Origin: an uncultured Dehalococcoidales bacterium
Lineage (GTDB): Bacteria; Chloroflexota; Dehalococcoidia; GIF9; AB-539-J10
Direction of reading: 5' to 3'
NCBI GenBank assembly: GCA_964394145.1
Contig: CAYMVL010000034.1
Span: forward strand, 58,660-122,659
Length of the DNA: 64,000 bases
A model generated the notes under the pieces. The model was not told the DNA's origin. It worked only from the letters and a program-made list of their open reading frames with translations, and did no database searches. This document shows, in pieces, positions 1-37,349 of the stretch (position 1 is the stretch's first letter; the number at the start of each line of letters is the position of its first letter). A program made the translations under genes and the position numbers.

Positions 1-133
1 AACAAGAATATCGGGCTGAGCAAGATGAACAGCGCGGGCGCTGTCGCGACCAGTACGGAGGCCGTCTTTTTTGAACTACTCAAGGTAGGAGAGGGGGAGC
101 GGTTGAAGGAAATCCAGAAGCTGGTCAAATGAC
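1..133 (+). CDS. C-terminal 43 codons of a CDS that starts upstream of the window; product unknown
   Basis: Open frame 1 runs from the window edge to TGA at 131-133. Translation ends ...EAVFFELLKVGEGERLKEIQKLVK*. No recognisable family. Confidence 0.3.
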
Positions 134-318
134 GGCTGCACCTGCTAGCCTTTGAATGATACAAGACTGGAGGCAGAATCGCCATCCGGGCCTCCCGGAA
201 CTTTGTGGTACCAGGCTTGGCATTGAATAGAAGACCTGCAGTCTTTTGAAATAGCTCTTTGTTTCTTGCCTTTGTATTTACCTCGTCCATTAAAGCGTAT
301 ATTTCGTATGCCAAACGC

Positions 319-347
319 TTGACAAACATAGGTGAGCCAACTATATT
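319..347 (+). promoter_or_regulatory. Sigma70-type promoter candidate for the 420..734 gene
   Basis: TTGACA at 319-324, exactly 17 nt spacer, TATATT at 342-347. RBS AAAGGAGGG lies about 8 nt before the ATG at 420. Confidence 0.5.
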
Positions 348-419
348 TGCTGTTAAGCAAGCTATTACAGCCTGAAATAAGTATTTGCGAGATAGACTTT
401 TCAGCAAAGGAGGGCCAAG

Positions 420-734
420 ATGGCAAAGGAAATTTCTATTTACAACCTTGCCGACGGTGTGACTGATGAGCAGTACCGGGAGTATGTCAAAAATGTCAAG
501 GGCCCATTCCTGGAGAGCCTGCCCTCGGTCAGAAAGTTCGAGCTGGTCAGGATAAAGGGAGCTGTGACGGGGGAGTCCCCCTACACTTATGTCGGCATCC
601 TGCACGTGGAAAATCTAGATGAATTCTACGGGAGAGATGTCCCATCCCGGCAATTCCAGGACTTTCAGAAGGAAGTAATGCGGATGATCAGGCAGGAAGA
701 CTATCACATGATGTATGGTAAGGAAATCTATTGA
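420..734 (+). CDS. Small 104-aa protein, probable dimeric alpha/beta-barrel (EthD/Dabb/REDY-like) fold protein
   Basis: ATG with strong RBS. N-terminal pattern IsIYnLadGVTDEQYreYv...P is reminiscent of stress-responsive alpha/beta barrel proteins. Family assignment is tentative. Confidence 0.4.
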   Translation: MAKEISIYNLADGVTDEQYREYVKNVKGPFLESLPSVRKFELVRIKGAVTGESPYTYVGILHVENLDEFYGRDVPSRQFQDFQKEVMRMIRQEDYHMMYGKEIY

Positions 735-839
735 TCAGTAAGAGGCTTCGTATTTTACGGAGGCAAGGCTATAAGGAGTGCTGGGCCTGCGGCTGTTGCA
801 AGCCTGTTTAGCATCCCGGTTGTTGGATCCAAGAGACAA

Positions 840-872
840 GGGGGAGCGGTGACGCTCCCCCTTAATTTCTTC
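840..872 (+). terminator. Intrinsic terminator-like hairpin after the 104-aa gene
   Basis: Perfect 9-bp stem GGGGGAGCG/CGCTCCCCC with GTGA loop, followed by the T-rich run TTAATTTCTT. Confidence 0.45.
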
Positions 873-1178
873 CCGCTAGTCCAGGTTCGAAGCTTGCCGA
901 ACTGTTCTTCTAGAAGAAGCATCTCATTCCATCTCTGCTACAGTTGTTTTTCTCCTATCCTGGGCCACAGCATAAGTCCATTGTGTCCGGTAGCATTCGT
1001 CAAGCAAGAGGAGGCGGTCAAGCAACACGATGTATTAGCATACGGAATAACTAATAAGTGTGGCTTTGGCTACAATAGAAAGAACAGTGTATAGTCTGAC
1101 AGCAAATCTAAGGTAGGAGGAGCCGTCACAGATGCAAGATACTGCAGTTATGAAAGGGAAGCAAGTGTCGGCGGGTAC

Positions 1179-1376
1179 TTGATCGTAGGAATCGACCCAA
1201 ATCAGAAGAAGCATGCTGCGGGTCTGATGACTAGAGATTTGACCAGCGAGGCCAAGTTCAAATTCGGGAATACCCGGGAAGGTCTGGATATGATGCTGGA
1301 CCGAGCGAAAGCGGAGATGGTGAAATCCGGTTGCGGGGGTGTCATGTTCGCCATCGATACAGGTGGTCACTACTAA
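1179..1376 (+). pseudogene. IS110-family transposase N-terminal fragment (DEDD domain remnant, about 65 aa, then stop)
   Basis: Translation MIVGIDPNQKKHAAGLM...GVMFAIDTGGHY* matches the IS110 N-terminal pattern (VGIDvsK..., ...vMEaTGgYe) and stops prematurely. Downstream frames carry only degenerate continuation. Confidence 0.5.
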
Positions 1377-1898
1377 GGGAATGTAGCGCACTGCCTTGGT
1401 GGGTGGAATATTCCGTTCCGTTTCATAAACCAGCATAGCTTAAGGCGGAGGCGTGAGCGGGAGGATCTCAACCGGAGGAAGAATGGCTATCGGGACAGCG
1501 AAGTAGCAGCGCAGCTTTTATATGCTGAGGAGTCTGTTGAGAGTATCATCTCGCAGGGTAATACCCGTTATGGCGGGGGATGGATTTGTGGCTACAATTG
1601 AAGCCTGACGTAAAGGGCGACGCCTGATGCGGTGGAAATTAAAGGCGCTTCATTACGCAGCCGCAACATAGATCGGGATCGATGCTGGCACCCGCTTACT
1701 GTCTTATGCAGTCACATTTCCGGCCGAAAAGCTCGGCTTGATTACGCAGCAGATTCGCATCATGGATGGGATGCTGGTCGAGTTAGTAGATGAAACAGGA
1801 GAGGGGAGATACTTGCGCTCGATACGGGGGCTCAAGTGTATTGCTGTGGCTGGGTTACTGGCGTGACAGCAGATTCTTCGGGAATCTGGCACAAGCTT

Positions 1899-2696
1899 TT
1901 AGCTAGAGACTGTGCCAGGCCTTTGGAGATGCTCTCCCATGTAGTATATGGTCTTTATGCCATTTATAAGCTGGGAGCTGGCTGCCCTCTTGGGGATGAA
2001 TCCATAGGCTCCTAACTGTTCAGCGGCAAGTATGTTCTCCTCATCATCGTATTGTGAAAGCATTAAGACCCTGGTTTGAGGGCATTCCTTGTATATCCGC
2101 TTGGTTGCCTCTAATCCGTCCATCTCCGGCATGACTATGTCCATTATTATCACGTCGGGCAAAATCTGGCGTGCTTTTTCCAGCGCATCTTTCCCATTCA
2201 CAGCTTCACCCACTACTTCGATGTCCTTTTGTAGCGTGAGCACGGCACGAATTCCATCTCTAACCACAGAATGGTCATCTACTATGAGCACTTTTATACG
2301 CTTGGCTGCTCTCTCAAGTACTGTCTGAGTTCGAACCGCTATCGAAGCTGGCTCAACCGGCTTAGCTACGTAGTCTTCAGCTTCCATCACCATAGCTTCG
2401 TCTCTTCTCCATCCCTTAATAAGCTGCTTTTCTGGCGCTGCGTCTATCACCAGGACAGGCAAATCCTTGGTCTTGGGATGCTGCCTGAGCCATTGGTGCA
2501 CAGAGAATGCTTCGCCACGAGGAGTCATGGTTCCCAGAATGATTACATCGGGATCCATAGTCTTGATTCTTTCCTGCACCTCTATTTTGTTGCTGGCAGT
2601 AGCAACCTGATATAGCCTGGCTTCTAATGTCTTTTGCAGAGCCAGCAGAAAATCGGGCTCATCATCCACAATTAGAATCTTTTTGCTGCTTGCCAT
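1899..2696 (-). CDS. Response regulator with two tandem receiver (REC) domains and no output domain
   Basis: Two D-D-...-K receiver signatures: ILIVDDEPDF...DVIILG and KVLIVDDHSVVRDG...DVIIMDIVMPEMDGLEA...LMLSQYDD. No HTH. Confidence 0.8.
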   Translation of the reverse strand: MASSKKILIVDDEPDFLLALQKTLEARLYQVATASNKIEVQERIKTMDPDVIILGTMTPRGEAFSVHQWLRQHPKTKDLPVLVIDAAPEKQLIKGWRRDEAMVMEAEDYVAKPVEPASIAVRTQTVLERAAKRIKVLIVDDHSVVRDGIRAVLTLQKDIEVVGEAVNGKDALEKARQILPDVIIMDIVMPEMDGLEATKRIYKECPQTRVLMLSQYDDEENILAAEQLGAYGFIPKRAASSQLINGIKTIYYMGEHLQRPGTVSS

Positions 2697-2765
2697 TTTA
2701 CGCCTCCCTTCATTATGTTACCTTTGGTTAGCTCGCTCGACCCGCGGCTGATTCTAAATCGAAAT

Positions 2766-3671
2766 TCAGTTACGCATGCTGACCCCCAATCCGGCAGCCT
2801 CCAGAATGTCAGGCACGATAGATTCTCTACCCACAGCCATGATATGAACGCCGTGGCATAGATTCAATTCTCTTATCGTCTTTACCAGCCGCACAGCAAT
2901 TTCGATGCCCTTCTGAAGCCCCTTTCCCTTTTCTGCGCTAGCTAGCTCATCAATTACAGCCTGGGGAACAACTACTCCAGGAACATTATCATTCATATAC
3001 TGAGCCATTCTCACTGAAGCTAAGACTATAATCCCCGCCAGGATCTTGACGTTGAATTGTCTTGAATATTGCATGAACTTGCGCAGGCAGTCTAGGTCAT
3101 ATACGCCCTGAGTCTGGAAAAACTGTGCGCCAGCTTCTACTTTCTTGTCAAACTTGATAAGTTGTGGCTCTATGAAATCCGCTGCGGGGTGAACCGAGGC
3201 ACCGATGCAGAATTTTGGAGCACCTTTTAGCTCATTCCCTCCAATGTCTTTACCCGATTCCATTATTTTGATCATTCTTATTAGCTGCACGGAATCCAGG
3301 TCAAATACTGGTTTCGCTTCCTTGTGGTCTCCCACATCAATAGAATCGCCAGTGAGGCAGAGCACATTAGTGATACCTCTGGAATACGCCAGAAGGAGGT
3401 CGGCCTGCAGTGCCAGGCGATTTCGGTCACGGGTAGTCATCTGAAACACAGGTTCGCCACCATGTTCCTTCACCAATAGACAGCCTCCCAGGGAAGGGAA
3501 CCTCATCACCGAACTTTGATGGTCGGTGATGTTAATAGCGTCAACCTTGTCCTTAAGCAATTCTATGTTATGAACCATCTCCGTTGTGTCTACTCCTTTT
3601 GGAGGTCCGACCTCTGCGGTCACCAAGAAATTACCTGAATCAAGTTTTTCCTCAAATAGCGATTTGGCCAT
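2766..3671 (-). CDS. metF: 5,10-methylenetetrahydrofolate reductase (MetF)
   Basis: 301-aa protein matching the MTHFR TIM-barrel family. 19-nt overlap with the upstream metV-like gene. Confidence 0.85.
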   Translation of the reverse strand: MAKSLFEEKLDSGNFLVTAEVGPPKGVDTTEMVHNIELLKDKVDAINITDHQSSVMRFPSLGGCLLVKEHGGEPVFQMTTRDRNRLALQADLLLAYSRGITNVLCLTGDSIDVGDHKEAKPVFDLDSVQLIRMIKIMESGKDIGGNELKGAPKFCIGASVHPAADFIEPQLIKFDKKVEAGAQFFQTQGVYDLDCLRKFMQYSRQFNVKILAGIIVLASVRMAQYMNDNVPGVVVPQAVIDELASAEKGKGLQKGIEIAVRLVKTIRELNLCHGVHIMAVGRESIVPDILEAAGLGVSMRN

Positions 3672-4347
3672 TACCTTCTCCTAGAATGATATCGGCTTTG
3701 TTCACGATTCTTCTTGGTCTAGGAATGGGGCGAAAATTCTTGGGGGGATAATATCGGCGCATCTTGTCCAACTGGCCTAATCTTTCCAACCTTTTGTAAA
3801 TCAGGATCCAGACACAATCCATGTCCTTATTCACCTCACATTTGCCATTCTTGCTACCGGCGCAGGGCCCGTTGAGTATTCCTTTGGGACATCTGGTAAT
3901 AGGGCAAATGCCACCAGTCTCAGCCAATATGCAATCGCCGCAAGCAGAACATCGCTCATCCCAAACACCCCACTCTTTAGACGCACCCATGAAAGATGTA
4001 TTAACCCCGGGCAGGGCAGGCGTATCCGGGAAACGCTCGGCCAGCATCTGCACTCCAACGCCACAGCCGAGAGAAAGGATGGCATCTACCTCACTGACTT
4101 TGTCCTCCAGCACATCCAGAAATTCAAGATCACACTGCCGTTTGATTGTGTATTCTGAAAAGCTATGGGCTTCACTTACACCTCTAGCCTGGGCAACTCT
4201 GAAGGCCCTGTGAAGCAGCGAGACCTCCCTCTCGCCTCCGGCGTTACAGACTGTCGTGCAGGTGCCACAACCAAGGATAAGCACCTTCTCATAAGGGGCG
4301 ATAAGGTGTAGCATTTCCTGTAAAGGTTTTTGCTGTGCCACTATCAA
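3652..4347 (-). CDS. metV: Methylene-THF reductase small subunit MetV-like (MTHFR C-terminal-domain protein, Cys-rich Fe-S/Zn)
   Basis: 231 aa with CGTCTTVCNAGGE and several further CxxC motifs. Overlaps metF. Confidence 0.7.
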   Translation of the reverse strand: MIVAQQKPLQEMLHLIAPYEKVLILGCGTCTTVCNAGGEREVSLLHRAFRVAQARGVSEAHSFSEYTIKRQCDLEFLDVLEDKVSEVDAILSLGCGVGVQMLAERFPDTPALPGVNTSFMGASKEWGVWDERCSACGDCILAETGGICPITRCPKGILNGPCAGSKNGKCEVNKDMDCVWILIYKRLERLGQLDKMRRYYPPKNFRPIPRPRRIVNKADIILGEGNGQIAI

Positions 4348-6527
4348 GATTTCACCTCCTGACTTATTACTGAGGCCAAATGTAGCTCACCTATTTGTTT
4401 GGTAAATTCGTCCAAGGCATTGGCGAAATCCGGTTCATTGGCATACAGATTGAAAGCTCGCAGCCGTTCAGGCTCAATGCCAATCTGGGCTAATAGCTTC
4501 TTGGCCTTTTCCAGCCGCTGTAGAGCCCAGAAGGCTGTATTCTGCCTGGCACACTGTTCTTCCCCGCAACCGGCAATAAAGACGCCTGCGGCGCCCATCT
4601 CGAAGGCGCGCAATATATGCTCAGTTTCTATCTTAGCAACACACAAGACAGGCACTATCGAGATGCCTAACTTAGGCTCTCTCCACAGGCCGGCCAGCGC
4701 ACCGGTGCCATAGAGCCCGTATTGGCAGCAAAAACCAATAATCAGTGGCTTGACCTTGGTGGACTCTGCAAACTTAAGAAGCTGAGCTAGACCTTCGTCT
4801 ACATGCTGTCTATCTTGTGGCTTGCGCAGGACTATAGCCTTGGCGGGACATTCAGCGGCGCATATGCCGCAAGCCTGGCATTGGTCGGCAGGTATTTGAA
4901 CGGTGCCACTGCCATCCAAGTATGGCACATCATAAGGGCAGATCCGTAAGCAGGTGAGACATGTGGCACACTTATCCGGGAACAGAATCTCGGCGCCCAT
5001 TCCGCACCTCAGACATCTCCTGGCTTCACTGACGGCAACTCCCCAATCATAGACCAGCTCCACCGGTTCAAATTCTCTTGCCCTTTCTTCAGCTGGAAGT
5101 ACGGGAGGCTCGAGGCGGCTGAGCTTCCTTATCGACTCTACAGTCTTAGGTAGAAGGTTACCTACCAGGGTTTCTTTTTCGCCCTTGGCGACTAACGGGT
5201 ACCTGTGTTGTAGATACTCATCAATGCGAAGAGCAGCCTGCTTACCTGTGGCCAGTGCCTGGACCACCGTCGCTGGCCCGGTGACAGCATCGCCTCCGGC
5301 GAAAACGCCCTCCCGATTTGTGGTGAGAGTGACCGGGTCAACTAAAATAGTGCTGCCTCTGCCGATGCGGAGACGGAAATCATCTGGAATTTGAGGAGCT
5401 TGGCCGATAGCTGTAATCAAAGTATCAAAGTCCATGCTGAATTCGCTATCCTTGATGGGCACCGGCCGACGCCGCCCGCTGGGATCTGGCGCGCCGAGCT
5501 CCATGCGCAAGCAGGTCAATTTCAACTTTGCATCGCTGCGTTCTATTTTAGTGGGTGTTACCAGGAATAGAATTTCTACTCCTTCGTCCTGTGCCTGTTC
5601 TACTTCTGATGGACTCGCCGGCATTTCCTCCTGACCGCGGCGGTAGAGCAGCGTTACATCTTCTGCGCCCAGCCTAAGTGCGGTACGCCCGGCATCAATC
5701 GCTACATCGCCTCCGCCTACCACAGCAACCCTATCACCGATATGTGGCTTAAAACCCAGATTTGCCTCACGGAGAAAAGTCGCCCCATCCACCACTCCTG
5801 GATTCTCCTCCCCTTCTATTCCTAACCTGAGACCTTGGTGAGCACCAACGGTTATAAAAGCAGCCTCGTAACCCATTTGGAAAAGCAGGTCCAGGGATAC
5901 TACCGAGGTGCTTGTCTCAATCTTCACCCCCATCTTAATCAACCTGTGGACCTCGGTATCAAGCACTTCTCGGGGAAGACGGTACTTAGGTATGCCTACT
6001 CGCAACATACCCCCCACTTCGGAATGGGCTTCAAAAATTGTCACAGGGTAGCTTAGACTTCTCAGATAGTAGGCAGCAGATAACCCTGCTGGACCGGATC
6101 CCACTATCGCCACTCTGTTCCCGTGCCTGTTCTCGCCTTCAATTTGTATCATTCTATCGCCGCCGAATTCCACTGCGAATCTCTTCAATGCTCTTATTGC
6201 TATCGGCTTATCTACCTGACCACGTCTGCAGGCAGTCTCACAAGGAGCAGTACATACGTGAGCGCAGATTGACGGGAACGGGTTAGTCTCCCTTATGACT
6301 TGTAAAGCCTCCATTATTCTCCCCTGAGCAATCAAGTCAACATATTCTCTAATTTCCATATGCAAAGGGCATGCTGCTTGGCAAGGTGGTATAAGAGTAT
6401 GGTCAAAAGAGCTTTCCCTGGCACCGTTTGGACACATGGACTTTCCCTCTGATTGGATATGGTTTTTGTCTCTTATAGGTATATAGTAATTCGAGTAATG
6501 TGGAACAGTAAGAGGGATCTCCCTCAA
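4344..6527 (-). CDS. Fusion oxidoreductase: GltD/NfnB-like NAD(P)H:FAD oxidoreductase, 2x[4Fe-4S] ferredoxin and MvhD (methyl-viologen-reducing hydrogenase delta subunit) domains
   Basis: N-terminus has the glutamate-synthase small-subunit Cys pattern (CPxxC...CxxxC) and two dinucleotide folds (IVGSGPAGLSAAYYL, AVVGGGDVAIDAG). The middle has CLRCGMG...CATCLTCLRICP...CQACGICAAECP. C-terminus has MvhD-like GFCCQYGLYGTG...GCGEEQC. Confidence 0.8.
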   Translation of the reverse strand: MREIPLTVPHYSNYYIPIRDKNHIQSEGKSMCPNGARESSFDHTLIPPCQAACPLHMEIREYVDLIAQGRIMEALQVIRETNPFPSICAHVCTAPCETACRRGQVDKPIAIRALKRFAVEFGGDRMIQIEGENRHGNRVAIVGSGPAGLSAAYYLRSLSYPVTIFEAHSEVGGMLRVGIPKYRLPREVLDTEVHRLIKMGVKIETSTSVVSLDLLFQMGYEAAFITVGAHQGLRLGIEGEENPGVVDGATFLREANLGFKPHIGDRVAVVGGGDVAIDAGRTALRLGAEDVTLLYRRGQEEMPASPSEVEQAQDEGVEILFLVTPTKIERSDAKLKLTCLRMELGAPDPSGRRRPVPIKDSEFSMDFDTLITAIGQAPQIPDDFRLRIGRGSTILVDPVTLTTNREGVFAGGDAVTGPATVVQALATGKQAALRIDEYLQHRYPLVAKGEKETLVGNLLPKTVESIRKLSRLEPPVLPAEERAREFEPVELVYDWGVAVSEARRCLRCGMGAEILFPDKCATCLTCLRICPYDVPYLDGSGTVQIPADQCQACGICAAECPAKAIVLRKPQDRQHVDEGLAQLLKFAESTKVKPLIIGFCCQYGLYGTGALAGLWREPKLGISIVPVLCVAKIETEHILRAFEMGAAGVFIAGCGEEQCARQNTAFWALQRLEKAKKLLAQIGIEPERLRAFNLYANEPDFANALDEFTKQIGELHLASVISQEVKS

Positions 6528-6619
6528 TATGTATGGTTTTAACGCTTGAATTCTTTGAATTACCCCCCTGTTTTAGGGAGGCGAAAATCCGGAGGATTCG
6601 GCAAATTCGGTTTGCATTA

Positions 6620-7276
6620 TTAGATGGTTATGATGCCTTTGCGTATGGCATATTTGATGAGGTCGGTCTTATTGTGGACATCAAGCTTGGCCATCAAATT
6701 GGTCTTGTGTCCCTCCACAGTCTTGGGACTGAGGACCAGTATGTCCGCTATCTCCTTGGTGGTATATCCTTCAACAAGTAACTTGAGGACCTCCCTTTCT
6801 CTGCCTGTCAGTTGTTCGTATGAGTCATTCCTTCCGCGCATTGGAGCTCCCAATTGATAGTCCTCAATGAAGGCCTTTGCTGCCACGGGGGAAAGAAAAG
6901 AATGCCCCTGGTGAACAGCTCGAATACCTGAGGCAAGCTCGGAAGAAGCTGCAGCTTTGCTGATGAAGCCTTGCGCTCCTGCTTCGATAATGGGGAAAAT
7001 ATATTCCTTTTCAGCATATTGGGTTAGCACCAGCACCTTCGTCCTGGGGAATTCCTTGGCTATTTTCCGCGTCGCCTCTAGGCCATCCATAATAGGCATG
7101 GCTATGTCCATAAGCACCACGTCAGGGGCCAGTTGCCTAACCTTATCCACCGCCTCCTTGCCATTTGCTGCTTCATCAACCACTTCGATATCTGCAGCCA
7201 GAGCTAGCAGAGCGCAGACGCCGTCCCTCACGACGGTGTGGTCATCAACCACCAGTACCCTTATCTTCTGCATCAA
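6620..7276 (-). CDS. NarL/FixJ-family response regulator (REC plus LuxR-type HTH)
   Basis: VLVVDDHTVVRDG receiver. C-terminal LTGREREVLKLLVEGYTTKEIADILVLSPKTVEGHKTNLMAKL LuxR HTH. Overlaps kinase gene by 32 nt. Confidence 0.9.
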   Translation of the reverse strand: MMQKIRVLVVDDHTVVRDGVCALLALAADIEVVDEAANGKEAVDKVRQLAPDVVLMDIAMPIMDGLEATRKIAKEFPRTKVLVLTQYAEKEYIFPIIEAGAQGFISKAAASSELASGIRAVHQGHSFLSPVAAKAFIEDYQLGAPMRGRNDSYEQLTGREREVLKLLVEGYTTKEIADILVLSPKTVEGHKTNLMAKLDVHNKTDLIKYAIRKGIITI

Positions 7277-8873
7277 CTGTGCTCCTGACTATCGGAATCG
7301 TGGCGATAATCTTGGTCCCTTTCCCGGGCTGGGAATCAATAGAACAGATGCCACCTACTAATTTCACACGTTCCTTCATGCCGTATAGGCCAGCACCACG
7401 GCCTCTTCTATCGATGCTCGTGATCTCGCTAACGTCAAATCCCTTGCCATCATCCTCAACGTGTAGGATACATTTATCCGCAGCGCATTCTATTCTAACA
7501 GCGGCATTTCTTGCCTCCGAATGTCTCAGGATGTTGCTCATAGCCTCCTGGGTAATACGGAAAAGCGCCAGCTCACTCTCCGCCGGCAACCGTTGCTCCA
7601 TCTTATGGAACGACGTTGATACATTGATGCCTTGAGAGTCGAGGTCAGCAGCAACGTGGCGAATAGCAGCAGGCAGTCCCAGTGTATCTAGCAAAGTTGG
7701 ACGCAGCTCCCTTATAAGCTTGTTCACCTCGGTGCCTGCATGCACAGCTATGGCCTGGGTCTTTTTCAGTATTTCCTTGATTTCAGCATCCTTGAACTGG
7801 CCCATCTCTATCATTTCGTTAACTGCCTGTAGGTTGAGAGTTAGGGCAGTTAGCTGCTGGCTCGTTTCATCATGTAGGTCTCTGGCGATTCTTTTCCGCT
7901 CCTGTTCCTGAACATTCAGAGCCTGCTGTAGCAGCATCTGATATCTTTGATTCCCCTCGCTCAACTCCGTATTTAGCTTTGCCTGCTCTATAGCAGTGCC
8001 AAGCTGGCAGGCTATAGAGTTGAGTAGGTACATGTCATCGAGGGCGAATTTGCCAGCCGAGTGGCTGGCCACATTCATCACACCTACGACCCTCTCCTTT
8101 GCTTTTAGAGGAACGCTGATGAATCCCTTAAGACCCTCTGCACTTATTAAAGCAGGAAATGCAACATCTGGATTTCTGGAGATATTCTCTAAGAGAGTCG
8201 GCTGGCCCGTTTGGGCCACTTTGCCGGCTATACCCTCACCGGTAGGGACGGATATTTCCGTGGCGTATTTGGCAGAGAGGCCACGGTGTACTTTATAGCA
8301 CCACTTCTGTGTTTTCTCATCAAGGAGCAGTATCCCGCCAACGCTGCCGCCAATAATTTGTAGCACAGTGTCCAGCGCTACGTTCAGTATAGCCTGCAGA
8401 TTATCCAGGCCAGAGACGGCAGATGAGACGCGATTTATAGAGTCGAGGTGATAATGCCGCCTAAGAATCTCTCTTTCCAGCTCTCTTTCTGCGGTAACAT
8501 CCCTTCTCAGTTCGACAACAGCATCGATAATGCCGTGGCTGTCTCTCAGCGGCCACATGCTGATTTTTACGTGCCTATCGCCGTAAGGATGAATTAGCGT
8601 TATTGGACTGCCATTTTGCAGCACCTTGCTCAGAGGGCATTCCCACAGAGGAGGGCCGCATGGTCTATCCCTGCCCTGCAATACATCATAACAGAGCTTA
8701 TCAACAGGTGACTCAGTGTTGTCACATGAGTGGCATATAGCCGAGTTAACAAATCTTACCCGGTATTCGGTATCGATAATTATGAGCTTGTCTTCCAGCC
8801 TATCCGCAACGGGCTCCAGACTTTGAATGAAGTCCGTATGCTGAGAGGTTCTGCGACTTGCCCGCTCTCTCAT
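7245..8873 (-). CDS. Soluble sensor histidine kinase: Cys-rich PAS, GAF, HisKA_3 and HATPase_c domains
   Basis: No hydrophobic segments. PAS region contains CHSCDN...C...C...CP. GAF block follows (GSVGGILLLDEKTQKW...). H-box is RIARDLHDETSQQLTAL (NarX-type). ATPase block HVEDDGKGFD. Confidence 0.85.
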   Translation of the reverse strand: MRERASRRTSQHTDFIQSLEPVADRLEDKLIIIDTEYRVRFVNSAICHSCDNTESPVDKLCYDVLQGRDRPCGPPLWECPLSKVLQNGSPITLIHPYGDRHVKISMWPLRDSHGIIDAVVELRRDVTAERELEREILRRHYHLDSINRVSSAVSGLDNLQAILNVALDTVLQIIGGSVGGILLLDEKTQKWCYKVHRGLSAKYATEISVPTGEGIAGKVAQTGQPTLLENISRNPDVAFPALISAEGLKGFISVPLKAKERVVGVMNVASHSAGKFALDDMYLLNSIACQLGTAIEQAKLNTELSEGNQRYQMLLQQALNVQEQERKRIARDLHDETSQQLTALTLNLQAVNEMIEMGQFKDAEIKEILKKTQAIAVHAGTEVNKLIRELRPTLLDTLGLPAAIRHVAADLDSQGINVSTSFHKMEQRLPAESELALFRITQEAMSNILRHSEARNAAVRIECAADKCILHVEDDGKGFDVSEITSIDRRGRGAGLYGMKERVKLVGGICSIDSQPGKGTKIIATIPIVRSTVDAEDKGTGG

Positions 8874-9229
8874 TTTCTATGTTTGGGATATAATTTCCTA
8901 TCGCGCTGCCTGATTCCTTCTCCTTCTATAATAGCCTGTATTTCCCAGTCATTCAAATCCAGTGTGGCTTACGGTTCAATCCCGTGTTCGGGCAATGCTT
9001 TGGCTCGAGATTTTCTTTTGTGGCATGTGCCGGTGCAGATGCGTATAAGCTGATTTACTTCTCAGGACAGCCTGAGGCCTTGCGAAGCACGCTGTCCTGC
9101 ATATGCTGGCAGCTGATTGGGCCAGGCTATTGCTGCCTGGCTAATTTAGCTTTCCTTTTGTGGAAGTAGCGGTATGTGATAATATAGTTCGCCTGTGCTA
9201 TCAATGAAACATATCGAGGCAGCCTGCTT

Positions 9230-10477
9230 TTGAGCAAGGACAGGCTTTTGCCCTCAAAAGGGGAGAAGCAGCCCCGTGTTTTCTATGGCTATTTTATCCT
9301 CCTGGCTTCTTTTGTTATCTTGATGGTAGTGTGGGGAGCCCACTTCAGTTTTGGAGTGTTTTTCAAGCCTGTATTGAGCGAATTCGGCTGGACAAGGGCT
9401 GCGACCTCAGGTGTCTACTCGCTGACTCTTTTTCTCATTGGTCTATATGGCATCTTTTTTGGCAGGCTAAGCGATAGATTCGGACCCAGATTAGTGGCTA
9501 CAGTCTGTGGCTTACTGATGGGCATCGGATACTTGCTTATGTCGCGGATTTGGCAAATCTGGCAGATGTATTTAATCTACGGTCTATTAATCAGTGTTGG
9601 AGTAGCAGGCACGTGGGTTCCGCTGCTATCCACTGTGACGAGATGGTTTGTCAAGAGAAGGGGGCTGGCAAGCGGTATTACTATGGCGGGGATAGGGGTT
9701 GGTGCTGCGATCATGCCACCGCTGGCAAACCAGCTGATCTCGAGCTACAGTTGGCGGACCTCTTATGTGATTATTGGACTAATCATTCTGGCACTGAGCG
9801 TCGTGCCTGCACAATTTCTGAGGCGTGACCCGAGTGAGAAAGGACTGCTGGCCTATGGAGCCGATTCAGTAAGCACGGCTAGCTCTGGCTCGGGAGTCCA
9901 GGGGTCTTCTCTTCGCGAAGCTCTTCGTGTTAGGCAATTCTGGATAATTCTTGTAATGTGCCTACTGGGCGGTATAGGAGTACATACTGTAATGGTACAT
10001 ATCGTTCCACATGCTACTGACATAGGAGTCGTGGCAACAGATGCTGCCACTATTCTATCCGTTGTGGGCATTATGAGCATTGGCACAAAAATTGGAACTG
10101 GCGGCATTGCAGACAAGTCTGGAAGCAGGCGGGTCATGATTATTGCATTCGTTCTGATGTCAGTGTCTTTCGTGGTGCTTCTCTTTGCCAGAGAGCTACC
10201 GGCGCTGTATCTAGCTGCAGCTATCTTTGCTGGCGCTTATGGAGGTTTTATTACGGCGCAGTCACCTATTGTAGCCGAGTTTTTTGGCCTGAGAGCCCAC
10301 GGGGAGGTGTTCGGGATGGCTGTATTTGCCTTTCTAATTGGAGGTGCTACTGGCTCCCTTGCATCCGGTCGCATATTTGATGTCAGCGGCAGTTACTACT
10401 GGGCGTTTGTAGTCTGTGCCTCGCTGGGCGTAGCAGGTCTGGCCCTGTCACTATCACTAAAGAGTCGCCGTAAGTAA
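9230..10477 (+). CDS. MFS transporter (oxalate/formate antiporter-like family)
   Basis: 415 aa with about 12 predicted TM segments and MFS signature loops GRLSDRFGPR / ADKSGSRR. Confidence 0.8.
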   Translation: MSKDRLLPSKGEKQPRVFYGYFILLASFVILMVVWGAHFSFGVFFKPVLSEFGWTRAATSGVYSLTLFLIGLYGIFFGRLSDRFGPRLVATVCGLLMGIGYLLMSRIWQIWQMYLIYGLLISVGVAGTWVPLLSTVTRWFVKRRGLASGITMAGIGVGAAIMPPLANQLISSYSWRTSYVIIGLIILALSVVPAQFLRRDPSEKGLLAYGADSVSTASSGSGVQGSSLREALRVRQFWIILVMCLLGGIGVHTVMVHIVPHATDIGVVATDAATILSVVGIMSIGTKIGTGGIADKSGSRRVMIIAFVLMSVSFVVLLFARELPALYLAAAIFAGAYGGFITAQSPIVAEFFGLRAHGEVFGMAVFAFLIGGATGSLASGRIFDVSGSYYWAFVVCASLGVAGLALSLSLKSRRK

Positions 10478-10991
10478 CGATCGCTTGCTGCGGTTTCGCA
10501 GCTTTGGGGACAAGACCGCTAGGAGAGCTCGTCTGAGATAGGTGGGGGAGTTGGGTCGGGACGAGGTGAAAGACAGTTTCGAATACCATGAATGGGCATT
10601 ATGTTAATGTTGTCAATATCTGTACCGCGCGCAACTGTTTCCGACTTATATAACATCTGTAACCACGATCTTAGAATTGAATAAGCCACGTTCTTCAATC
10701 GACAGCGACCTCGGTCCTATCATGTAGATGCTATCGCGATATCTAGTATTTGCGAATTGTCCTTATAGTGGGACTATAGCTATGCTGAGTTCACCGATGA
10801 CCTCCGGAGTAAATCCTAAGGTGTAGCAGTGATGTCAGCCACTTTCATAACGCAACTCCTTTGTAGAATACAAATATAGTGATATCTCCTTGATGGCAAT
10901 AAGGAAGTTGTTCAGGCTGTTAACGCTCTATAAGTTGCTCTACCGGCAGTGAGAATAGGAGACAGTCGTTTCAAGCAATTCAATGTGGTAG

Positions 10992-11831
10992 CTACTTCTT
11001 GTCTCCAAGTATAGCTACCAGGAGGAGGCCAGGACCTGTATGTGTGCCAATTGCAGGAGTCATTTTCGACCGGTAGATTCGCTCCCTGGGAAATATAACG
11101 CCAAGTCGCTCTGCTAGTGCCTCCGCTTCGTCAGGGCAAGCAGTGTCTTCCACCGCCATTTCCTCGATGCTAGAGTAGCTCATAGCGAAGTTGTATAGAC
11201 GCCTTACCGCCGCTGCTCTGGAATGAGTTCTGCCCTCGGGTTCAACCACACCGTTCCTCAGGGCAATTAGGGGATTTATCTTGAGTACCGAACCCAAAAA
11301 AGTCTGGGCCTTACCGATGCGGCCACCTCTCCGAAGATACTCCAGGGTATCGAAGGTGCACAGGAGGTCCACGCGGGGCATCGTCCCTTGAGCTACCTCC
11401 ATAACCTCATTCAAGCTCGCGCCGGCCCGGGCTGCTTCAGCTGCCTTCATAACTATGAAGCCCTGTGCCATAGTAGCCCATCCGGAGTCAATCACTTCTA
11501 CTCTGCATTTCTTTTTCATAAGTCCAACGCTCCGCTTTGCTACCTCATAGGTGCCGCTAAGCTTGGAGGTAAGAGTTACGACAAGGATTTCATTCCCACC
11601 TTCAGCCAGATTATCATATGCCTCCGCAAAGGTTACGGGTGATGGTACTGAAGTGCCGGGAGGAATCCTGCTCCGCTTCAGCCTGTCATAGAACTGCTCA
11701 ACACTCATATCAATGCCGTCGCGGTAGACCTCTGTTCCGAAGCGAACAAGGATGGGAATTACCATTATCCCGAGCTCTTCGACCACGCCTCTTGGTAAAT
11801 CGGAGACACTGTCAGTTAAGACTTTGACCAT
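10992..11831 (-). CDS. DegV family fatty-acid-binding protein
   Basis: MVKVLTDSVSDLP... with EDD-fold DegV pattern. Paralogous to the 21027..21863 gene. Confidence 0.85.
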   Translation of the reverse strand: MVKVLTDSVSDLPRGVVEELGIMVIPILVRFGTEVYRDGIDMSVEQFYDRLKRSRIPPGTSVPSPVTFAEAYDNLAEGGNEILVVTLTSKLSGTYEVAKRSVGLMKKKCRVEVIDSGWATMAQGFIVMKAAEAARAGASLNEVMEVAQGTMPRVDLLCTFDTLEYLRRGGRIGKAQTFLGSVLKINPLIALRNGVVEPEGRTHSRAAAVRRLYNFAMSYSSIEEMAVEDTACPDEAEALAERLGVIFPRERIYRSKMTPAIGTHTGPGLLLVAILGDKK

Positions 11832-11879
11832 CTATATTCGCCAGTAGTTGCTTTAGGCTGTATTCTATACGGTTGTTAT

Positions 11880-12200
11880 GCTGATAACAATGCTCCAGGC
11901 TGCAAGAATCGCTGTAACATTGAATGATAGTAAGGGACTCAAAGCAGTGAGCAGCAGGAGGTTGGAGAAGGGGCTGATGCACCATTCAGACCGCGGCAAA
12001 GTCAGTACTGCAGTTATAAATATCAGGGCCTCTTAAGGCAGAGGGAAGCAATTGAAGACATAACAGAATATATTGAGATATTTCACAACTGGCAGCGGCG
12101 GCATGTTAAACTGGGATTCGCATCAACTATAGCCCTTGCAGATAAATATTGTGCAGGGCTGGTAGCAGCATGAACGGTTGCGTGTCCATTATTGACATCC
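11880..12200 (+). pseudogene. IS3-family transposase (OrfB / rve integrase core) remnant with frameshift
   Basis: Frame +1 reads ...RRLEKGLMHHSDRGKVSTAV... (IS3 LIHHSDRGSQYTS motif) then stops. Frame +3, about 90 nt downstream, reads IEIFHNWQRRHVKLGF (IS3 IExFYNxxRxHSxLGY motif). It is 5'-truncated at the degV gene. Confidence 0.5.
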
Positions 12201-33483: not shown

Positions 33484-33495
33484 ATATCTCTCCTT

Positions 33496-37159: not shown

Positions 37160-37349
37160 CGATGCACAACGATGAGCATTGGTTACCGACGTTTGATAGG
37201 ACAATGGCGGAAGGAATATAATCAGGTATGTTGACATAGTGCGAAGAATGACCAAGCACTAGCACCTGAGACGATATCGACTGTGCAAGAACTGGTATAG
37301 ACGTCAAAGGTTGCCTGAGATCACAAGATTAGTTCTAGAGGGGTATGAG

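What the first reader, a model, noticed from the sequence alone, without database searches (positions are those of the whole stretch)
1899..8873. Two-component-controlled operon encoding MetF, MetV and a GltD-ferredoxin-MvhD fusion oxidoreductase: candidate unusual methylene-THF reductase
Six co-directional, overlapping or tightly spaced minus-strand genes run HK, NarL-RR, 727-aa fusion oxidoreductase, MetV, MetF, 2xREC regulator. In characterised acetogens MetFV partners with HdrABC-MvhD or RnfC-like subunits. Here HdrA is replaced by a glutamate-synthase-small-subunit-like NAD(P)H:flavin oxidoreductase fused to a 2x[4Fe-4S] ferredoxin and an MvhD domain, all in one polypeptide. That domain combination suggests a compact NAD(P)H-dependent, possibly electron-bifurcating MTHFR. 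A dedicated sensor kinase and regulator for such a core C1 enzyme is unusual.
Basis: partly seen in the sequence, partly recalled or inferred. Interest (0 to 1): 0.7.

Follow-up and report, generated by a model that had tools for sequence, protein, structure and literature searches.

The report
NADPH-module–MetVF methylene-THF reductase, two-component regulated
A Dehalococcoidia bacterium encodes the folate-pathway enzyme methylene-tetrahydrofolate reductase (MetF+MetV) next to a single large iron-sulfur flavoprotein that most likely feeds it electrons from NADPH. This subunit arrangement fits none of the four recognised types of the enzyme, recurs in several bacterial phyla, and is here under its own sensor-regulator control.

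Summary
Six minus-strand genes encode a PAS-GAF histidine kinase, a NarL-type regulator, a fusion oxidoreductase, MetV, MetF and a double-receiver protein.

Three corrections:
- The fusion is 697 aa (ATG at 6437), not 727.
- A promoter-like element in the 182-nt gap before it suggests two transcription units.
- The first receiver domain of the last gene is a pseudo-receiver.

HMM searches confirm the fusion's domains: GltD/NfnB-like flavoprotein, 2x[4Fe-4S] ferredoxin and MvhD.

In Dehalococcoidia genomes MetV+MetF follow the fusion in 53 of 55 loci, the double receiver in 49 of 50, and the kinase and regulator precede it in 43 of 49. Distant relatives in cultured Dethiobacter alkaliphilus and in Bacillota and Actinomycetota MAGs sit beside acs (Wood-Ljungdahl) genes. 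Other relatives lie in Hdr-containing clusters.

The flavin module is the circularly permuted StnC/NfnABC kind. It has an invariant Lys where bifurcating NfnB has Glu, and an NADPH-type YRR motif where distant relatives have CLE.

Best reading: a linear NADPH -> FAD -> Fe-S wire -> MetV -> MetF reductase. It works like type III but has an unrelated input module. Bifurcation is disfavoured, not excluded. Earlier papers filed similar clusters under the Moorella type IV. Verdict: new variant of a known kind, untested biochemically.

The parts
7245..8873 (-). Cytoplasmic sensor histidine kinase (542 aa): PAS_4, GAF, HisKA_3, HATPase_c. It has three invariant Cys in the PAS domain (C61, C72, C79) and a conserved phospho-His box (H334).
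   Evidence: Pfam. Conservation in 51 orthologues. Lies immediately upstream together with the RR in 43/49 loci.
6620..7276 (-). NarL/LuxR-type response regulator (REC + GerE HTH; 217-218 aa). The acceptor Asp57 is conserved in 54/54 orthologues. Its start overlaps the end of the HK gene.
   Evidence: Pfam/NCBIfam..
6543..6580 (-). Conserved sequence block upstream of the promoter-like element. It is a candidate binding site for the regulator (inferred, not shown).
   Evidence: MAFFT alignment of 46 RR-fusion intergenic regions. No clear palindrome was found.
6483..6511 (-). Promoter-like element: -35 TTACTG (6511-6506), 17-nt spacer, -10 TACTAT (6488-6483). The orthologue consensus for the -10 is TAccAT.
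   Evidence: Sequence, alignment. The generic scan missed it, so this is a conserved pattern, not a demonstrated promoter.
4344..6437 (-). Fusion oxidoreductase, 697 aa. Residues 15-435 plus 436-480 form a circularly permuted GltD/NfnB-like module with FAD, an NADPH-type site (YRR 265-267) and two [4Fe-4S] clusters (C19, C23, C58, C62, C66, C70, C475, C478, Lys85). Residues 486-535 are a 2x[4Fe-4S] ferredoxin domain (C490/493/496/500 and C520/523/526/530). Residues 563-685 are an MvhD-like [2Fe-2S] domain (C570/571/599/624/629).
6438..6527 (-). Upstream extension of the mechanical ORF (TTG start). It is probably not translated: it has no SD, lies upstream of the promoter-like element, and is not conserved in orthologues.
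3652..4347 (-). MetV (231 aa, DUF5981/MTHFR_C), the Fe-S/Zn small subunit of MetVF-type reductases. It has 13 invariant Cys, and its start overlaps the fusion's stop by 4 nt.
   Evidence: Pfam. Cys conservation 63/63.
2766..3671 (-). MetF (301 aa, MTHFR TIM barrel), the catalytic subunit. It scores far below the cut-off of the NAD(P)H-dependent MetF equivalog (TIGR00676: 69.7 vs 293.7 bits). It overlaps metV by 20 nt.
1899..2696 (-). Double-receiver protein (265 aa) with no output domain. Domain 1 is a pseudo-receiver, with the acceptor Asp replaced by Gly55 in 55/55 orthologues. Domain 2 is intact (D140, D141, D186, T/S214, K236) and is 58% identical to the receiver of the NarL regulator.
   Evidence: Follows metF in 49/50 loci.

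Best explanation
The cassette encodes a three-subunit, pyridine-nucleotide-dependent methylene-THF reductase: the fusion protein plus MetV plus MetF.

The fusion is the electron-input module. NADPH binds its GltD-like flavin domain and reduces FAD. Electrons then leave one at a time through the two [4Fe-4S] clusters of the permuted GltD cluster domain, the two [4Fe-4S] clusters of the ferredoxin domain and the [2Fe-2S] of the C-terminal MvhD domain. The MvhD domain docks on MetV, and MetV's clusters pass the electrons to the flavin of MetF, which reduces methylene-THF to methyl-THF.

Functionally this resembles the type III enzyme of Acetobacterium woodii (RnfC2-MetVF; linear, not bifurcating). 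It differs in having an unrelated NADPH-specific input module, built from the same kind of module that StnC and NfnABC use as their NADPH port.

Expression of the three enzyme genes is probably driven from their own promoter. That promoter would be controlled by the adjacent cytoplasmic PAS-GAF kinase and NarL-type regulator. The pseudo-REC/REC protein would act as a second phospho-acceptor, either as a sink or as a protein-level modulator.

What is shown: domain content, cofactor ligands, synteny, the permutation and the motif dichotomy. What is inferred: complex formation, NADPH specificity, linear wiring, direction of the reaction, and control by the regulator.
For: Domains and ligands:
- Pfam/NCBIfam support all four modules.
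- All cluster cysteines are invariant or nearly so in 65 orthologues, and in 31 sequences down to 35% identity.

Link to MetVF:
- MetV+MetF follow the fusion in 53/55 loci, with a conserved 4-nt stop/start overlap between the fusion and metV.
- The same triad lies beside acsE in cultured Dethiobacter alkaliphilus (after AcsB, AcsC, RACo and AcsD). It lies inside CODH/ACS clusters in two MAGs and next to cooC-acsE in an Actinomycetota MAG. This is the slot where Moorella has hdrCBA-mvhD-metVF (PMC8760232).
- An MvhD module sits directly upstream of metV in every layout seen: here, in L074, and in Moorella according to the literature.

Kind of flavin module:
- The best sequence and fold matches are NfnABC (9n5u_A, 9bov_A) and StnC (8oh5_C), ahead of NfnB.
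- Lys85 is invariant (65/65, and across phyla). It aligns with StnC K170, whereas NfnB, including the window's own NfnB, has Glu.
- StnC's FAD is experimentally non-bifurcating (PMC10482914).

Permutation: residues 438-477 align to the N-terminus of the window's NfnB. Grafting them in front raises the Fer4_20 score from 74.4 bits (profile positions 30-107) to 102.5 bits (positions 2-107).

NADPH: the [LI]YRR[ST] motif is present in about 60/65 orthologues and is identical in position to the motif of NADPH-specific NfnB and StnC.

MetF: it is not the NAD(P)H-type equivalog, so an external donor module is needed, as for other MetVF enzymes.

Regulation: the kinase-regulator pair and the double receiver are syntenic in most loci, and the 182-nt gap holds a conserved promoter-like element and an upstream block.
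Against: - No biochemical, proteomic or transcript data exist for any member of this arrangement, as far as the searchable literature shows.
- Complex formation is inferred from gene order only.
- Two distant relatives of the fusion stand alone between ppdK and dnaG, so the module is not obligatorily tied to MetVF.
- In some lineages (L074, L077) a FUS-like gene coexists with HdrA, MvhD and HdrBC. The fusion may therefore need, or once have needed, further partners encoded elsewhere.
- The Lys/Glu marker comes from one characterised system.
- The wiring (linear or branched) could not be checked, because no model coordinates are available and the ferredoxin domain is modelled with low confidence.
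- A seven-cluster wire with NADPH as donor wastes about 120 mV or more, which is the classical argument for expecting energy coupling.
- No acs genes lie within 8 kb in any Dehalococcoidia locus or in the window. A catabolic Wood-Ljungdahl role in this organism is therefore not shown; the role could be anabolic.
Confidence: 0.58

Rival explanations
1. The complex bifurcates or confurcates electrons. NADPH reduces the FAD of the fusion. One electron goes energetically downhill via MvhD and MetV to MetF and methylene-THF. The other goes uphill through the second cluster branch to ferredoxin: 2 NADPH + Fd(ox) + CH2-THF -> 2 NADP+ + Fd(red) + CH3-THF. The reaction would be reversible for methyl-group oxidation.
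For: - Thermodynamically attractive: -320 mV donor, -200 mV and about -450 mV acceptors (values as quoted).
- The flavin module shares its fold with bifurcating NfnB.
- The protein carries two separable sets of clusters, the GltD-type pair and the ferredoxin/MvhD set, which could form two exits.
- MvhD modules are otherwise known from bifurcating Hdr complexes.
- FUS-like genes sit inside Hdr-MetV clusters in L074 and L077.
Against: - The module is the StnC/NfnABC kind, with an invariant Lys instead of the Glu ligand that gives NfnB's proximal cluster its low potential. StnC's FAD does not bifurcate.
- The organism has a separate canonical NfnAB with the Glu.
- Apart from MetF's, there is no second flavin to collect single electrons.
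- Characterised type II and III MetVF enzymes do not bifurcate.
Confidence: 0.2
2. The fusion is not a subunit of the reductase. It would be a separate redox enzyme that is merely co-regulated. Examples are an NADPH:ferredoxin (or other carrier) oxidoreductase that supplies the reductant for a type II MetVF, or a module that docks on an Hdr-like complex encoded elsewhere.
For: - Type II MetVF works with reduced ferredoxin in vitro.
- Homologues of the fusion occur alone and with Hdr genes.
- The permuted GltD module is a promiscuous building block, found in fusions of 450-1700 aa.
Against: - The stop/start overlap with metV is conserved, and the order fusion-metV-metF is near-invariant across phyla at 35-40% identity.
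- The C-terminal MvhD domain is always the part adjacent to metV.
- No ferredoxin or Hdr gene is present in the cassette or in the window ORFs examined.
Confidence: 0.12
3. The fusion is the beta subunit of an NADP-dependent formate dehydrogenase, as the automatic JGI/KEGG-derived label says.
For: Source names 'formate dehydrogenase (NADP+) beta subunit' and 'formate dehydrogenase beta subunit' appear on many members. GltD-like NADPH subunits do partner Fdh catalytic subunits in other systems (L082 has such a gene further downstream).
Against: No molybdopterin/FdhA gene is adjacent in the window, in the identical contigs or in any surveyed Dehalococcoidia locus. The neighbour is always metV-metF.
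Confidence: 0.02

Closest known systems
Type III MTHFR, RnfC2-MetV-MetF of Acetobacterium woodii (Bertsch et al. 2015, as summarised in PMC8760232)
   Same: It has a MetVF core plus one extra subunit that carries the pyridine-nucleotide site, a flavin and several [4Fe-4S] clusters. It runs a linear, non-bifurcating NAD(P)H -> methylene-THF reaction, and the three genes are contiguous.
   Different: Its input subunit is RnfC/NuoF-like (FMN, NADH) with a MetV-like docking domain. Here the input subunit is a permuted GltD/NfnB-like FAD module with an NADPH-type site, a ferredoxin domain and an MvhD docking domain. There is no sequence relationship between the two input subunits.
Type IV MTHFR, HdrABC-MvhD-MetVF of Moorella thermoacetica (Mock et al. 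2014, as summarised in PMC8760232 and PMC13040438)
   Same: It has a MetVF core with an MvhD module encoded immediately upstream of metV. In relatives of the fusion, the triad occupies the same position inside acs clusters.
   Different: The cassette, and the part of the window examined, have no HdrA, HdrB or HdrC. MvhD is a domain of the NADPH module rather than a separate protein. The donor is predicted to be NADPH, not NADH. An intermediate layout that holds both Hdr genes and a FUS-like gene exists in other Chloroflexota and in Poribacteria (L074, L077).
StnC of the Sporomusa ovata Stn transhydrogenase (PDB 8oh5) and NfnA of the NfnABC complexes (9bov, 9n5u)
   Same: These are the best sequence and fold matches to residues 15-480. 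They share the same permuted GltD-like NADPH module, the YRR motif, and a Lys at the position of the non-Cys ligand of the FAD-proximal cluster.
   Different: In those proteins the module is fused to NuoG/Fdh-like domains and feeds a HydBC-like bifurcating core. Here it is fused to a ferredoxin domain and MvhD, and is paired with MetVF.
hdrABC-mvhD-metVF cluster of marine Anaerolineae (DscP3, An-B22, SM23; Sewell et al. 2017, PMC5736913)
   Same: It comes from Chloroflexi. The domain drawing has Fer4, Pyr_redox_2 and FlpD genes next to metVF, and two-component genes flank metF. L074 in this study reproduces that layout and contains a FUS-like gene.
   Different: Those clusters also hold HdrA, a free MvhD and an HdrCB fusion, and were interpreted as Moorella-type. 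That paper stated that no other Chloroflexi clade has metV. The present cassette is Hdr-free, belongs to Dehalococcoidia, carries the NADPH-type motif (the L074 type has CLE), and adds the pseudo-REC/REC gene.
NfnB, the large subunit of NfnAB (PDB 5jca_L, 4ylf_B)
   Same: GltD-like fold, FAD, NADPH site and two [4Fe-4S] clusters. It is 36% identical to the window's own NfnB over 418 residues.
   Different: NfnB is not permuted, has Glu rather than Lys at the proximal cluster, partners NfnA, and bifurcates.

Membership tests
MetVF-type methylene-THF reductase (core) | MetF catalytic subunit with an MTHFR TIM-barrel domain | tested here: met
   PF02219, 132.6 bits, full length 6-294. Remote PDB MTHFR hits.
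MetVF-type methylene-THF reductase (core) | MetV small subunit (MTHFR_C/DUF5981, Cys-rich Fe-S/Zn protein) encoded directly upstream of metF | tested here: met
   PF12225, 130 bits. 13 Cys invariant in 63 orthologues. 20-nt overlap with metF.
MetVF-type methylene-THF reductase (core) | Methylene-THF reduction activity that does not use NAD(P)H at MetF itself | not testable with these tools
   The only indirect evidence is that MetF scores 69.7 bits against the NAD(P)H MetF equivalog TIGR00676 (cut-off 293.7).
Type IV MTHFR (HdrABC-MvhD-MetVF) | HdrA flavoprotein subunit encoded with metVF | tested here: not met
   The cassette has no HdrA. The only HdrA-model match is to the C-terminal ferredoxin+MvhD part of HdrA2 (residues 516-716). 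The flavin module is GltD/NfnB-like.
Type IV MTHFR (HdrABC-MvhD-MetVF) | HdrB/HdrC (CCG domain) subunits | tested here: not met
   None in the cassette, in the +/-10 kb gene table of the identical contig, or among the 20 larger window ORFs scanned. Genes elsewhere in the genome cannot be excluded.
Type IV MTHFR (HdrABC-MvhD-MetVF) | MvhD [2Fe-2S] module adjacent to metV | tested here: met
   FlpD domain, 91 bits, with five conserved Cys. It is present as the C-terminal domain of the fusion rather than as a separate protein.
Type III MTHFR (RnfC2-MetVF) | RnfC/NuoF-like NADH/FMN subunit encoded with metVF | tested here: not met
   No Complex1_51K/RnfC domain is found in any cassette protein.
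NfnB (bifurcating subunit of NfnAB) | GltD-like FAD/NADPH fold with two [4Fe-4S] clusters | tested here: met
   5jca_L E 3e-81 and 4ylf_B E 7e-78. Foldseek TM (target) 0.76-0.77.
NfnB (bifurcating subunit of NfnAB) | Glu ligand on the FAD-proximal [4Fe-4S] cluster | tested here: not met
   Lys85 occupies that position in 65/65 orthologues and in all 31 cross-phylum sequences. The window's true NfnB has Glu.
NfnB (bifurcating subunit of NfnAB) | Adjacent NfnA (PyrK-like, [2Fe-2S], FAD) partner | tested here: not met
   The only NfnA-like gene is at 33496-34425, next to the canonical NfnB and 26 kb away.
Stn/NfnABC-type GltD-like NADPH module | Permuted cluster domain, Lys at the proximal cluster, and an NADPH-type YRR motif | tested here: met
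   These proteins are the best PDB matches by both sequence and fold.
Stn/NfnABC-type GltD-like NADPH module | Fusion to NuoG/Fdh-like domains and HydBC-like partner subunits | tested here: not met
   The C-terminus is ferredoxin + MvhD, and no NuoE/NuoF-like genes are in the cassette.
NADP-dependent formate dehydrogenase beta subunit (automatic label, K15022-type) | Adjacent molybdopterin/tungstopterin FdhA catalytic subunit | tested here: not met
   None is present in the window cassette or in the identical contigs. The downstream neighbour in 53/55 Dehalococcoidia loci is metV-metF.
NarL-family two-component system | HisKA_3 + HATPase_c kinase with a conserved phospho-His, and a REC + GerE regulator with the acceptor Asp | tested here: met
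   Pfam. H334 conserved 51/51 and D57 conserved 54/54.

The most novel reading that the evidence does not exclude
The fusion-MetV-MetF complex would be a minimal, three-polypeptide, NADPH-dependent electron-bifurcating/confurcating methylene-THF reductase. It would couple the exergonic reduction of methylene-THF to ferredoxin reduction without any Hdr subunit, using the two cluster sets of the fusion as the two exits from one FAD. The Dehalococcoidia clade would switch it on and off through a redox-sensing PAS(Cys3)-GAF kinase. This is the long-sought energy-conserving coupling at the MTHFR step.
Probability: 0.17. Interest if true: 0.88.

Novelty: new variant of a known kind. Interest (0 to 1): 0.62.

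Why it matters
How methylene-THF reduction is supplied with electrons, and whether it is coupled to energy conservation, is a long-standing open point in the bioenergetics of the Wood-Ljungdahl pathway. The reviews read here still list the type IV partner as unknown and the type II donor as a dilemma.

This cassette defines a fifth subunit architecture: MetVF plus a permuted GltD-type NAD(P)H module carrying ferredoxin and MvhD domains.
- It is widespread: one tight Dehalococcoidia clade plus about 30 further 50%-identity clusters among the 150 best-scoring family representatives. The relatives whose source or context could be read come from Bacillota, Actinomycetota, Poribacteria and other Chloroflexota.
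- It occurs in a cultured organism, Dethiobacter alkaliphilus, so it is directly testable.
- It predicts a split in nucleotide specificity within one family: YRR (NADPH) in the two-component-regulated Dehalococcoidia clade, CLE (NADH) in the acs-cluster relatives.

It also has practical consequences for metagenome interpretation:
- The fusion is automatically labelled as a formate dehydrogenase beta subunit.
- Its MvhD domain next to metVF has been taken as evidence for a Moorella-type Hdr complex.
- An earlier paper stated that metV is absent from Chloroflexi clades other than marine Anaerolineae.

Finally, a conserved dedicated kinase, regulator and pseudo-receiver on a core C1 enzyme suggests that these Dehalococcoidia switch this step conditionally.

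Tried and rejected
- **Riboswitch or leader RNA upstream of the enzyme genes.** Rfam in permissive mode on 1-12000 found nothing.
- **NreB-like four-Cys [4Fe-4S] oxygen sensor in the kinase PAS domain.** The CxxC (C47/C50) is not conserved (3-4 of 51). Only C61, C72 and C79 are invariant, so the NreB analogy was dropped.
- **A guessed palindromic regulator site** (CCyTA-N-TArGG) in the RR-fusion spacer. It was present in 2/52 loci, no more than in shuffled controls. An unbiased alignment was used instead.
- **The 727-aa ORF at 52585-54768 as a paralogue.** It is polynucleotide phosphorylase.
- **The idea that the N-terminal cluster domain is degenerate, with only six Cys.** This was replaced by the circular-permutation explanation after the BLASTP secondary hit and the graft test.
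- **L047 as a genuine metVF-less exception.** It keeps a 31-codon metV remnant.
- **L077 as a metVF-less Hdr cluster.** It holds a metV stub cut by a transposase, plus metF fragments.
- **T. phaeum, 'Ca. Contubernalis' and 'Ca. Syntrophonatronum' as prior descriptions.** These have separate hdrA and mvhD genes and are type IV-like.
- **Generic promoter/terminator scan.** It gave counts no different from shuffles and did not find the conserved element.
- **The predicted structure** (pLDDT 73.8). It could not settle the wiring, because coordinates are not returned and the ferredoxin domain is poorly modelled.

Full report
**What is in the sequence**

Six co-directional minus-strand ORFs occupy 1899-8873. 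Pfam and NCBIfam scans give the following.
- A cytoplasmic sensor kinase, 7245-8873: PAS_4, GAF, HisKA_3, HATPase_c.
- A NarL/LuxR-type response regulator, 6620-7276: REC + GerE.
- A fusion oxidoreductase, mechanical ORF 4344-6527.
- MetV, 3652-4347: DUF5981/MTHFR_C, 130 bits.
- MetF, 2766-3671: MTHFR, 133 bits.
- A protein made of two receiver domains, 1899-2696.

In 727-aa numbering the fusion carries Fer4_20 (residues 47-121), Pyr_redox_2 (138-428), a 2x[4Fe-4S] dicluster domain (517-565) and FlpD/MvhD (596-715, 91 bits).

Its region 40-568 scores 493 bits against the GltD-plus-ferredoxin subfamily PRK12771. Its region 516-716 matches the C-terminal ferredoxin+MvhD part of HdrA2.

**Corrections to the anatomy**

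The fusion is 697 aa.
- The ATG at 6437 is preceded by GAGGG at a 7-nt spacing. The TTG at 6527 has no Shine-Dalgarno.
- The identical protein is called at 697 aa on five public contigs.
- Orthologues do not conserve anything upstream of that start.

HK/RR, fusion/metV and metV/metF overlap by about 29, 4 and 20 nt. A 182-nt spacer separates the regulator gene from the fusion gene. An alignment of 46 orthologous spacers shows three things:
- a conserved -35/-10-like pair, TTACTG (6511-6506), 17 nt, TACTAT (6488-6483), with consensus TAccAT;
- a conserved block further upstream (6543-6580);
- the TTG start lying upstream of this element.

The cassette is therefore probably two transcription units: the kinase-regulator pair, and the enzyme genes with or without the double receiver. 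This is inference from sequence, and no transcript data exist. No Rfam family matches 1-12000 even in permissive mode.

**Origin and synteny**

The identical contig is from a sediment metagenome (JGI 3300001533, 105 kb).

A scan of species-representative genomes found 70 related loci at 57-88% identity, nearly all of them Dehalococcoidia or Dehalococcoidales MAGs. By tblastn:
- MetV+MetF follow the fusion in 53 of 55 loci with enough sequence;
- the double-receiver gene follows in 49 of 50;
- the regulator and kinase lie immediately upstream in 43 of 49.

One MetVF exception (L047) retains the first 31 codons of metV, so it is a secondary deletion or an assembly join. The other (L070) has fragmented hits.

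None of these loci, nor the window, has CODH/ACS or corrinoid-protein genes within 8 kb. The rest of the window is housekeeping: arginine, lysine and purine biosynthesis, RecG, ArgRS and PNPase. It also holds a canonical NfnAB pair at 32086-34425, and no HdrB/C gene among the ORFs scanned.

**The fusion protein in detail**

Across 65 orthologues the cofactor ligands are invariant or nearly so:
- two CxxCxxCxxxC motifs (C490-C500, C520-C530);
- five MvhD cysteines (C570, C571, C599, C624, C629);
- six N-terminal cysteines (C19, C23, C58, C62, C66, C70);
- an extra CxxC (C475, C478).

The N-terminal domain matches only profile positions 30-107 of Fer4_20 and lacks the first CxxC of the GltD motif.

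BLASTP against the window's own NfnB explains this. Besides the main alignment (36% identity over 418 residues), fusion residues 438-477 (...AVSEARRCLR) align to NfnB residues 5-44 (...AIAEAKRCIQ).

I tested the implied circular permutation by grafting residues 436-480 in front of residue 17. The Fer4_20 score rose from 74.4 bits (positions 30-107) to 102.5 bits (positions 2-107). The isolated segment alone hits positions 1-28.

The module therefore has a full complement of eight Cys plus one non-Cys ligand for two [4Fe-4S] clusters. In total the protein should hold FAD, four [4Fe-4S] clusters and one [2Fe-2S] cluster.

**Which kind of GltD-like module**

By sequence, the best solved relatives are the following:
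- NfnA of the Thermococcus sibiricus NfnABC complex (9n5u_A, E 4e-117);
- the Caldicellulosiruptor NfnABC subunit (9bov_A, 7e-115);
- StnC of the Sporomusa ovata Stn transhydrogenase (8oh5_C, 2.5e-99).

These rank ahead of NfnB of NfnAB (5jca_L at 3e-81, 4ylf_B at 7e-78). An AlphaFold model (pLDDT 73.8, pTM 0.68) gives the same order by Foldseek.

The Stn structure paper reports three relevant points (PMC10482914):
- StnC's GltD-like domain is the NADPH port;
- its FAD is non-bifurcating;
- the FAD-proximal cluster has Lys170 where NfnB has a Glu thought to set that cluster's low potential.

In the HMMER alignments, StnC K170 aligns with Lys85 of the fusion (AIRALKRFA). 9n5u and 9bov also have Lys. 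Both NfnB structures and the window's own NfnB have Glu. Lys85 is invariant in 65/65 orthologues and in 31 sequences spanning several phyla.

This is the main reason to prefer a non-bifurcating FAD. It rests on one characterised system.

**Nucleotide specificity**

The second Rossmann motif is followed by [LI]-Y-R-R-[ST] in about 60/65 orthologues. The same YRR[ST] is found in the NADPH-specific NfnB, StnC and NfnABC proteins.

In all 18 distant family members aligned, the same positions read C-L-E-[S/C/A]. That set includes the L074 type, Dethiobacter, Actinomycetota, Bacillota and Poribacteria.

By the general rule for Rossmann sites, basic residues at the end of beta-2 bind the 2'-phosphate and an acidic residue excludes it. 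On that rule I predict NADPH for the window's enzyme and NADH for the relatives. This is inference, not measurement.

**Distribution and context beyond Dehalococcoidia**

The four-domain architecture (about 670-740 aa) is found in Chloroflexota, Bacillota, Actinomycetota, Poribacteria and cultured Dethiobacter alkaliphilus.

An exhaustive search of 50%-identity representatives collapses the Dehalococcoidia clade to one representative (73% identity), and the next is at 46%. About 30 of the top 150 representatives are full-length fusions. The permuted flavin module alone occurs in proteins of 450-1700 aa, with 4795 representatives at E <= 1e-30.

Gene tables for eight distant members:
- D. alkaliphilus: AcsB, AcsC, RACo, AcsD, AcsE, fusion, MetV, MetF, and two genes on, a HisKA_3 kinase and a NarL regulator.
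- Two MAGs: FolD, AcsD, CooS, AcsB, AcsC, fusion, MetV, MetF, CooC, then a further Pterin_bind or CdhD-family acs gene.
- An Actinomycetota MAG: fusion, MetV, MetF, CooC, AcsE.
- A Dehalococcoidia MAG with the CLE motif: fusion, MetV, MetF, with no regulators.
- A Poribacteria contig: NuoF-like, HdrA-like, MvhD, HdrC, HdrB, fusion, then a metV stub cut by a transposase, with metF fragments nearby.
- Two contigs with the fusion alone between ppdK and dnaG-sigA.

L074, a Chloroflexota MAG at 38% identity, has a double HdrA, MvhD, a FUS-like gene, MetV, an HdrCB fusion, a NarL regulator and a GAF-PAS kinase.

Four conclusions follow.
- The fusion is linked to metVF in six of eight distant loci.
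- In four of them the triad sits beside acs genes, the position where Moorella has hdrCBA-mvhD-metVF. In three of those it lies in a cluster that also holds CODH/ACS.
- Hdr-containing and Hdr-free versions both exist.
- An MvhD module always directly precedes metV, which I take as the docking element (inference).

**Comparison with what is known**

The current scheme has four MTHFR types (PMC8760232; repeated in 2026 in PMC13040438):
- I: MetF alone;
- II: MetVF;
- III: RnfC2-MetVF, NADH-dependent and non-bifurcating;
- IV: HdrABC-MvhD-MetVF, with NADH plus an unknown second acceptor.

None has a GltD-like partner.

Full-text searches combining MetVF/MetFV, MvhD, GltD/NfnB/glutamate synthase, Dehalococcoidia and Dethiobacter found no paper that describes the fusion as an MTHFR subunit.

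The nearest prior sighting is Sewell et al. 2017 (PMC5736913). Their domain figure for marine Anaerolineae shows Fer4, Pyr_redox_2 and FlpD genes beside metVF, with two-component genes flanking metF. They interpreted it as the Moorella type and stated that no other Chloroflexi clade has metV.

Other genome papers likewise read 'HdrA/MvhD next to metVF' as type IV. A survey of bifurcating enzymes assumed that HdrABC is present whenever MetF, MetV and MvhD co-localise (PMC6085437).

Many subscription papers are not searchable, so a description could have been missed.

The automatic label 'formate dehydrogenase (NADP+) beta subunit' is contradicted by context.

**The regulators**

The kinase has no transmembrane prediction among its domains, and it has a conserved phospho-His (H334, 51/51).

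Of its PAS cysteines only C61, C72 and C79 are invariant, in the pattern LC-x9-PC-x6-CP. The CxxC is not conserved, so an NreB-like four-Cys cluster is unlikely. The signal is unknown. A thiol-, metal- or redox-based signal is a guess.

The NarL regulator has its acceptor Asp (54/54).

In the double-receiver protein, the acceptor Asp of domain 1 is replaced by Gly in 55/55 orthologues, while the acidic pair and the Lys are kept. Domain 2 is fully intact and is 58% identical to the regulator's receiver.

It is therefore a pseudo-receiver plus a true receiver without an output domain. It would most simply be a second target of the same kinase, acting as a phosphate sink or a protein-level modulator (inference).

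The combination of two-component genes, double receiver, NADPH-type motif and separation from acs genes is specific to this Dehalococcoidia clade.

**Most likely mechanism and alternatives**

I favour, at about 0.58, a linear NADPH:methylene-THF oxidoreductase. Its path would be NADPH, FAD, two GltD-type clusters, two ferredoxin-domain clusters, the MvhD [2Fe-2S], the MetV clusters, the MetF flavin and finally methylene-THF. It works like type III but is built from unrelated parts.

- **Bifurcation or confurcation with ferredoxin** remains possible, at about 0.2. The energetics invite it, and the protein has two sets of clusters. However, the Lys marker, the StnC precedent, the separate canonical NfnAB and the lack of a collecting flavin all speak against it.
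- **The fusion acting as a separate enzyme** gets about 0.12. The conserved overlap and gene order argue against this.
- **The formate dehydrogenase reading** is effectively excluded.

The window cannot decide whether the enzyme serves a catabolic Wood-Ljungdahl pathway or anabolic methyl-group supply in this organism.

**Verdict**

This is a new variant of a known kind: an unclassified, widespread MetVF partner architecture. It has a testable split in nucleotide specificity and, in Dehalococcoidia, dedicated signal-transduction control.

It is not unique to this window and has been glimpsed before under another name. No biochemical evidence exists yet.

Noticed in passing
window 32086-34425 (-): A canonical NfnAB pair. 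The NfnB-like protein is 465 aa, with full-length Fer4_20 + Pyr_redox_2 and the Glu ligand (LERFV). The PyrK/NfnA-like protein is 309 aa. The organism therefore has a conventional bifurcating transhydrogenase in addition to the fusion.
   Followed up: partly
window 4344-6437 (-) and homologues P0001-P0240: Source annotations call this protein 'formate dehydrogenase (NADP+) beta subunit' or 'hydrogenase iron-sulfur subunit', yet no FdhA or hydrogenase gene is adjacent in any surveyed locus. This is probably a systematic mis-annotation, and it could inflate FDH or Hdr calls in MAG metabolic reconstructions.
   Followed up: partly
alignment A1; window residues 263-268 of the fusion: The nucleotide-site motif splits cleanly within the family. 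The two-component-regulated Dehalococcoidia clade has [LI]YRR[ST]. All acs-cluster or Hdr-cluster relatives have CLE[S/C/A]. This predicts a difference between NADPH and NADH specificity.
   Followed up: yes
window 7245-8873 (-), kinase residues 55-85: The PAS domain has three invariant cysteines (C61, C72, C79; LC-x9-PC-x6-CP) in 51/51 orthologues. A neighbouring CxxC is not conserved. The ligand or signal is unknown.
   Followed up: partly
window 1899-2696 (-): The first domain of the double-receiver protein has Gly instead of the phospho-acceptor Asp in 55/55 orthologues, making it a pseudo-receiver. The second domain is a close paralogue (58% identity) of the NarL regulator's receiver.
   Followed up: yes
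L077 9208-9450 and 13161-13771: In a Poribacteria contig, the Hdr + fusion cluster continues into a metV stub of about 51 codons, followed by an IS240-type transposase gene. metF fragments lie about 4 kb away on the other strand. The cluster has been disrupted by an insertion or rearrangement.
   Followed up: partly
L079 7001-9079; L081 7001-9055: Full-length homologues of the fusion stand alone between ppdK and dnaG-sigA, with no metVF, Hdr or acs genes nearby. Their partner is unknown.
   Followed up: no
L075 11935-14070: In Dethiobacter alkaliphilus, a HisKA_3 kinase and a NarL-type regulator (39% identical to the window's regulator) lie two genes downstream of fusion-metV-metF. This may be an independent or ancestral link between this kind of regulator and the triad.
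   Followed up: no
window 37311-38624 (+) and 38722-41184 (-): A bacterial serpin (375 bits to the Serpin model) is encoded convergently next to an 820-aa clostripain-family (C11) peptidase. They may form an inhibitor-protease pair.
   Followed up: no
window 10992-11831, 21027-21863, 21882-23510 (-): Two DegV-family genes and a FakA-like fatty acid kinase subunit. One DegV gene is separated from the others by about 9 kb.
   Followed up: no
L076 6714-8456; L078 12818-14638; L082 12394-14841: In the acs clusters of the Bacillota and Actinomycetota MAGs, a second gene with the same permuted GltD module lies a few genes downstream of metF. In L082 it is fused to Fer2 and molybdopterin domains, which makes it Stn- or Fdh-like.
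   Followed up: no
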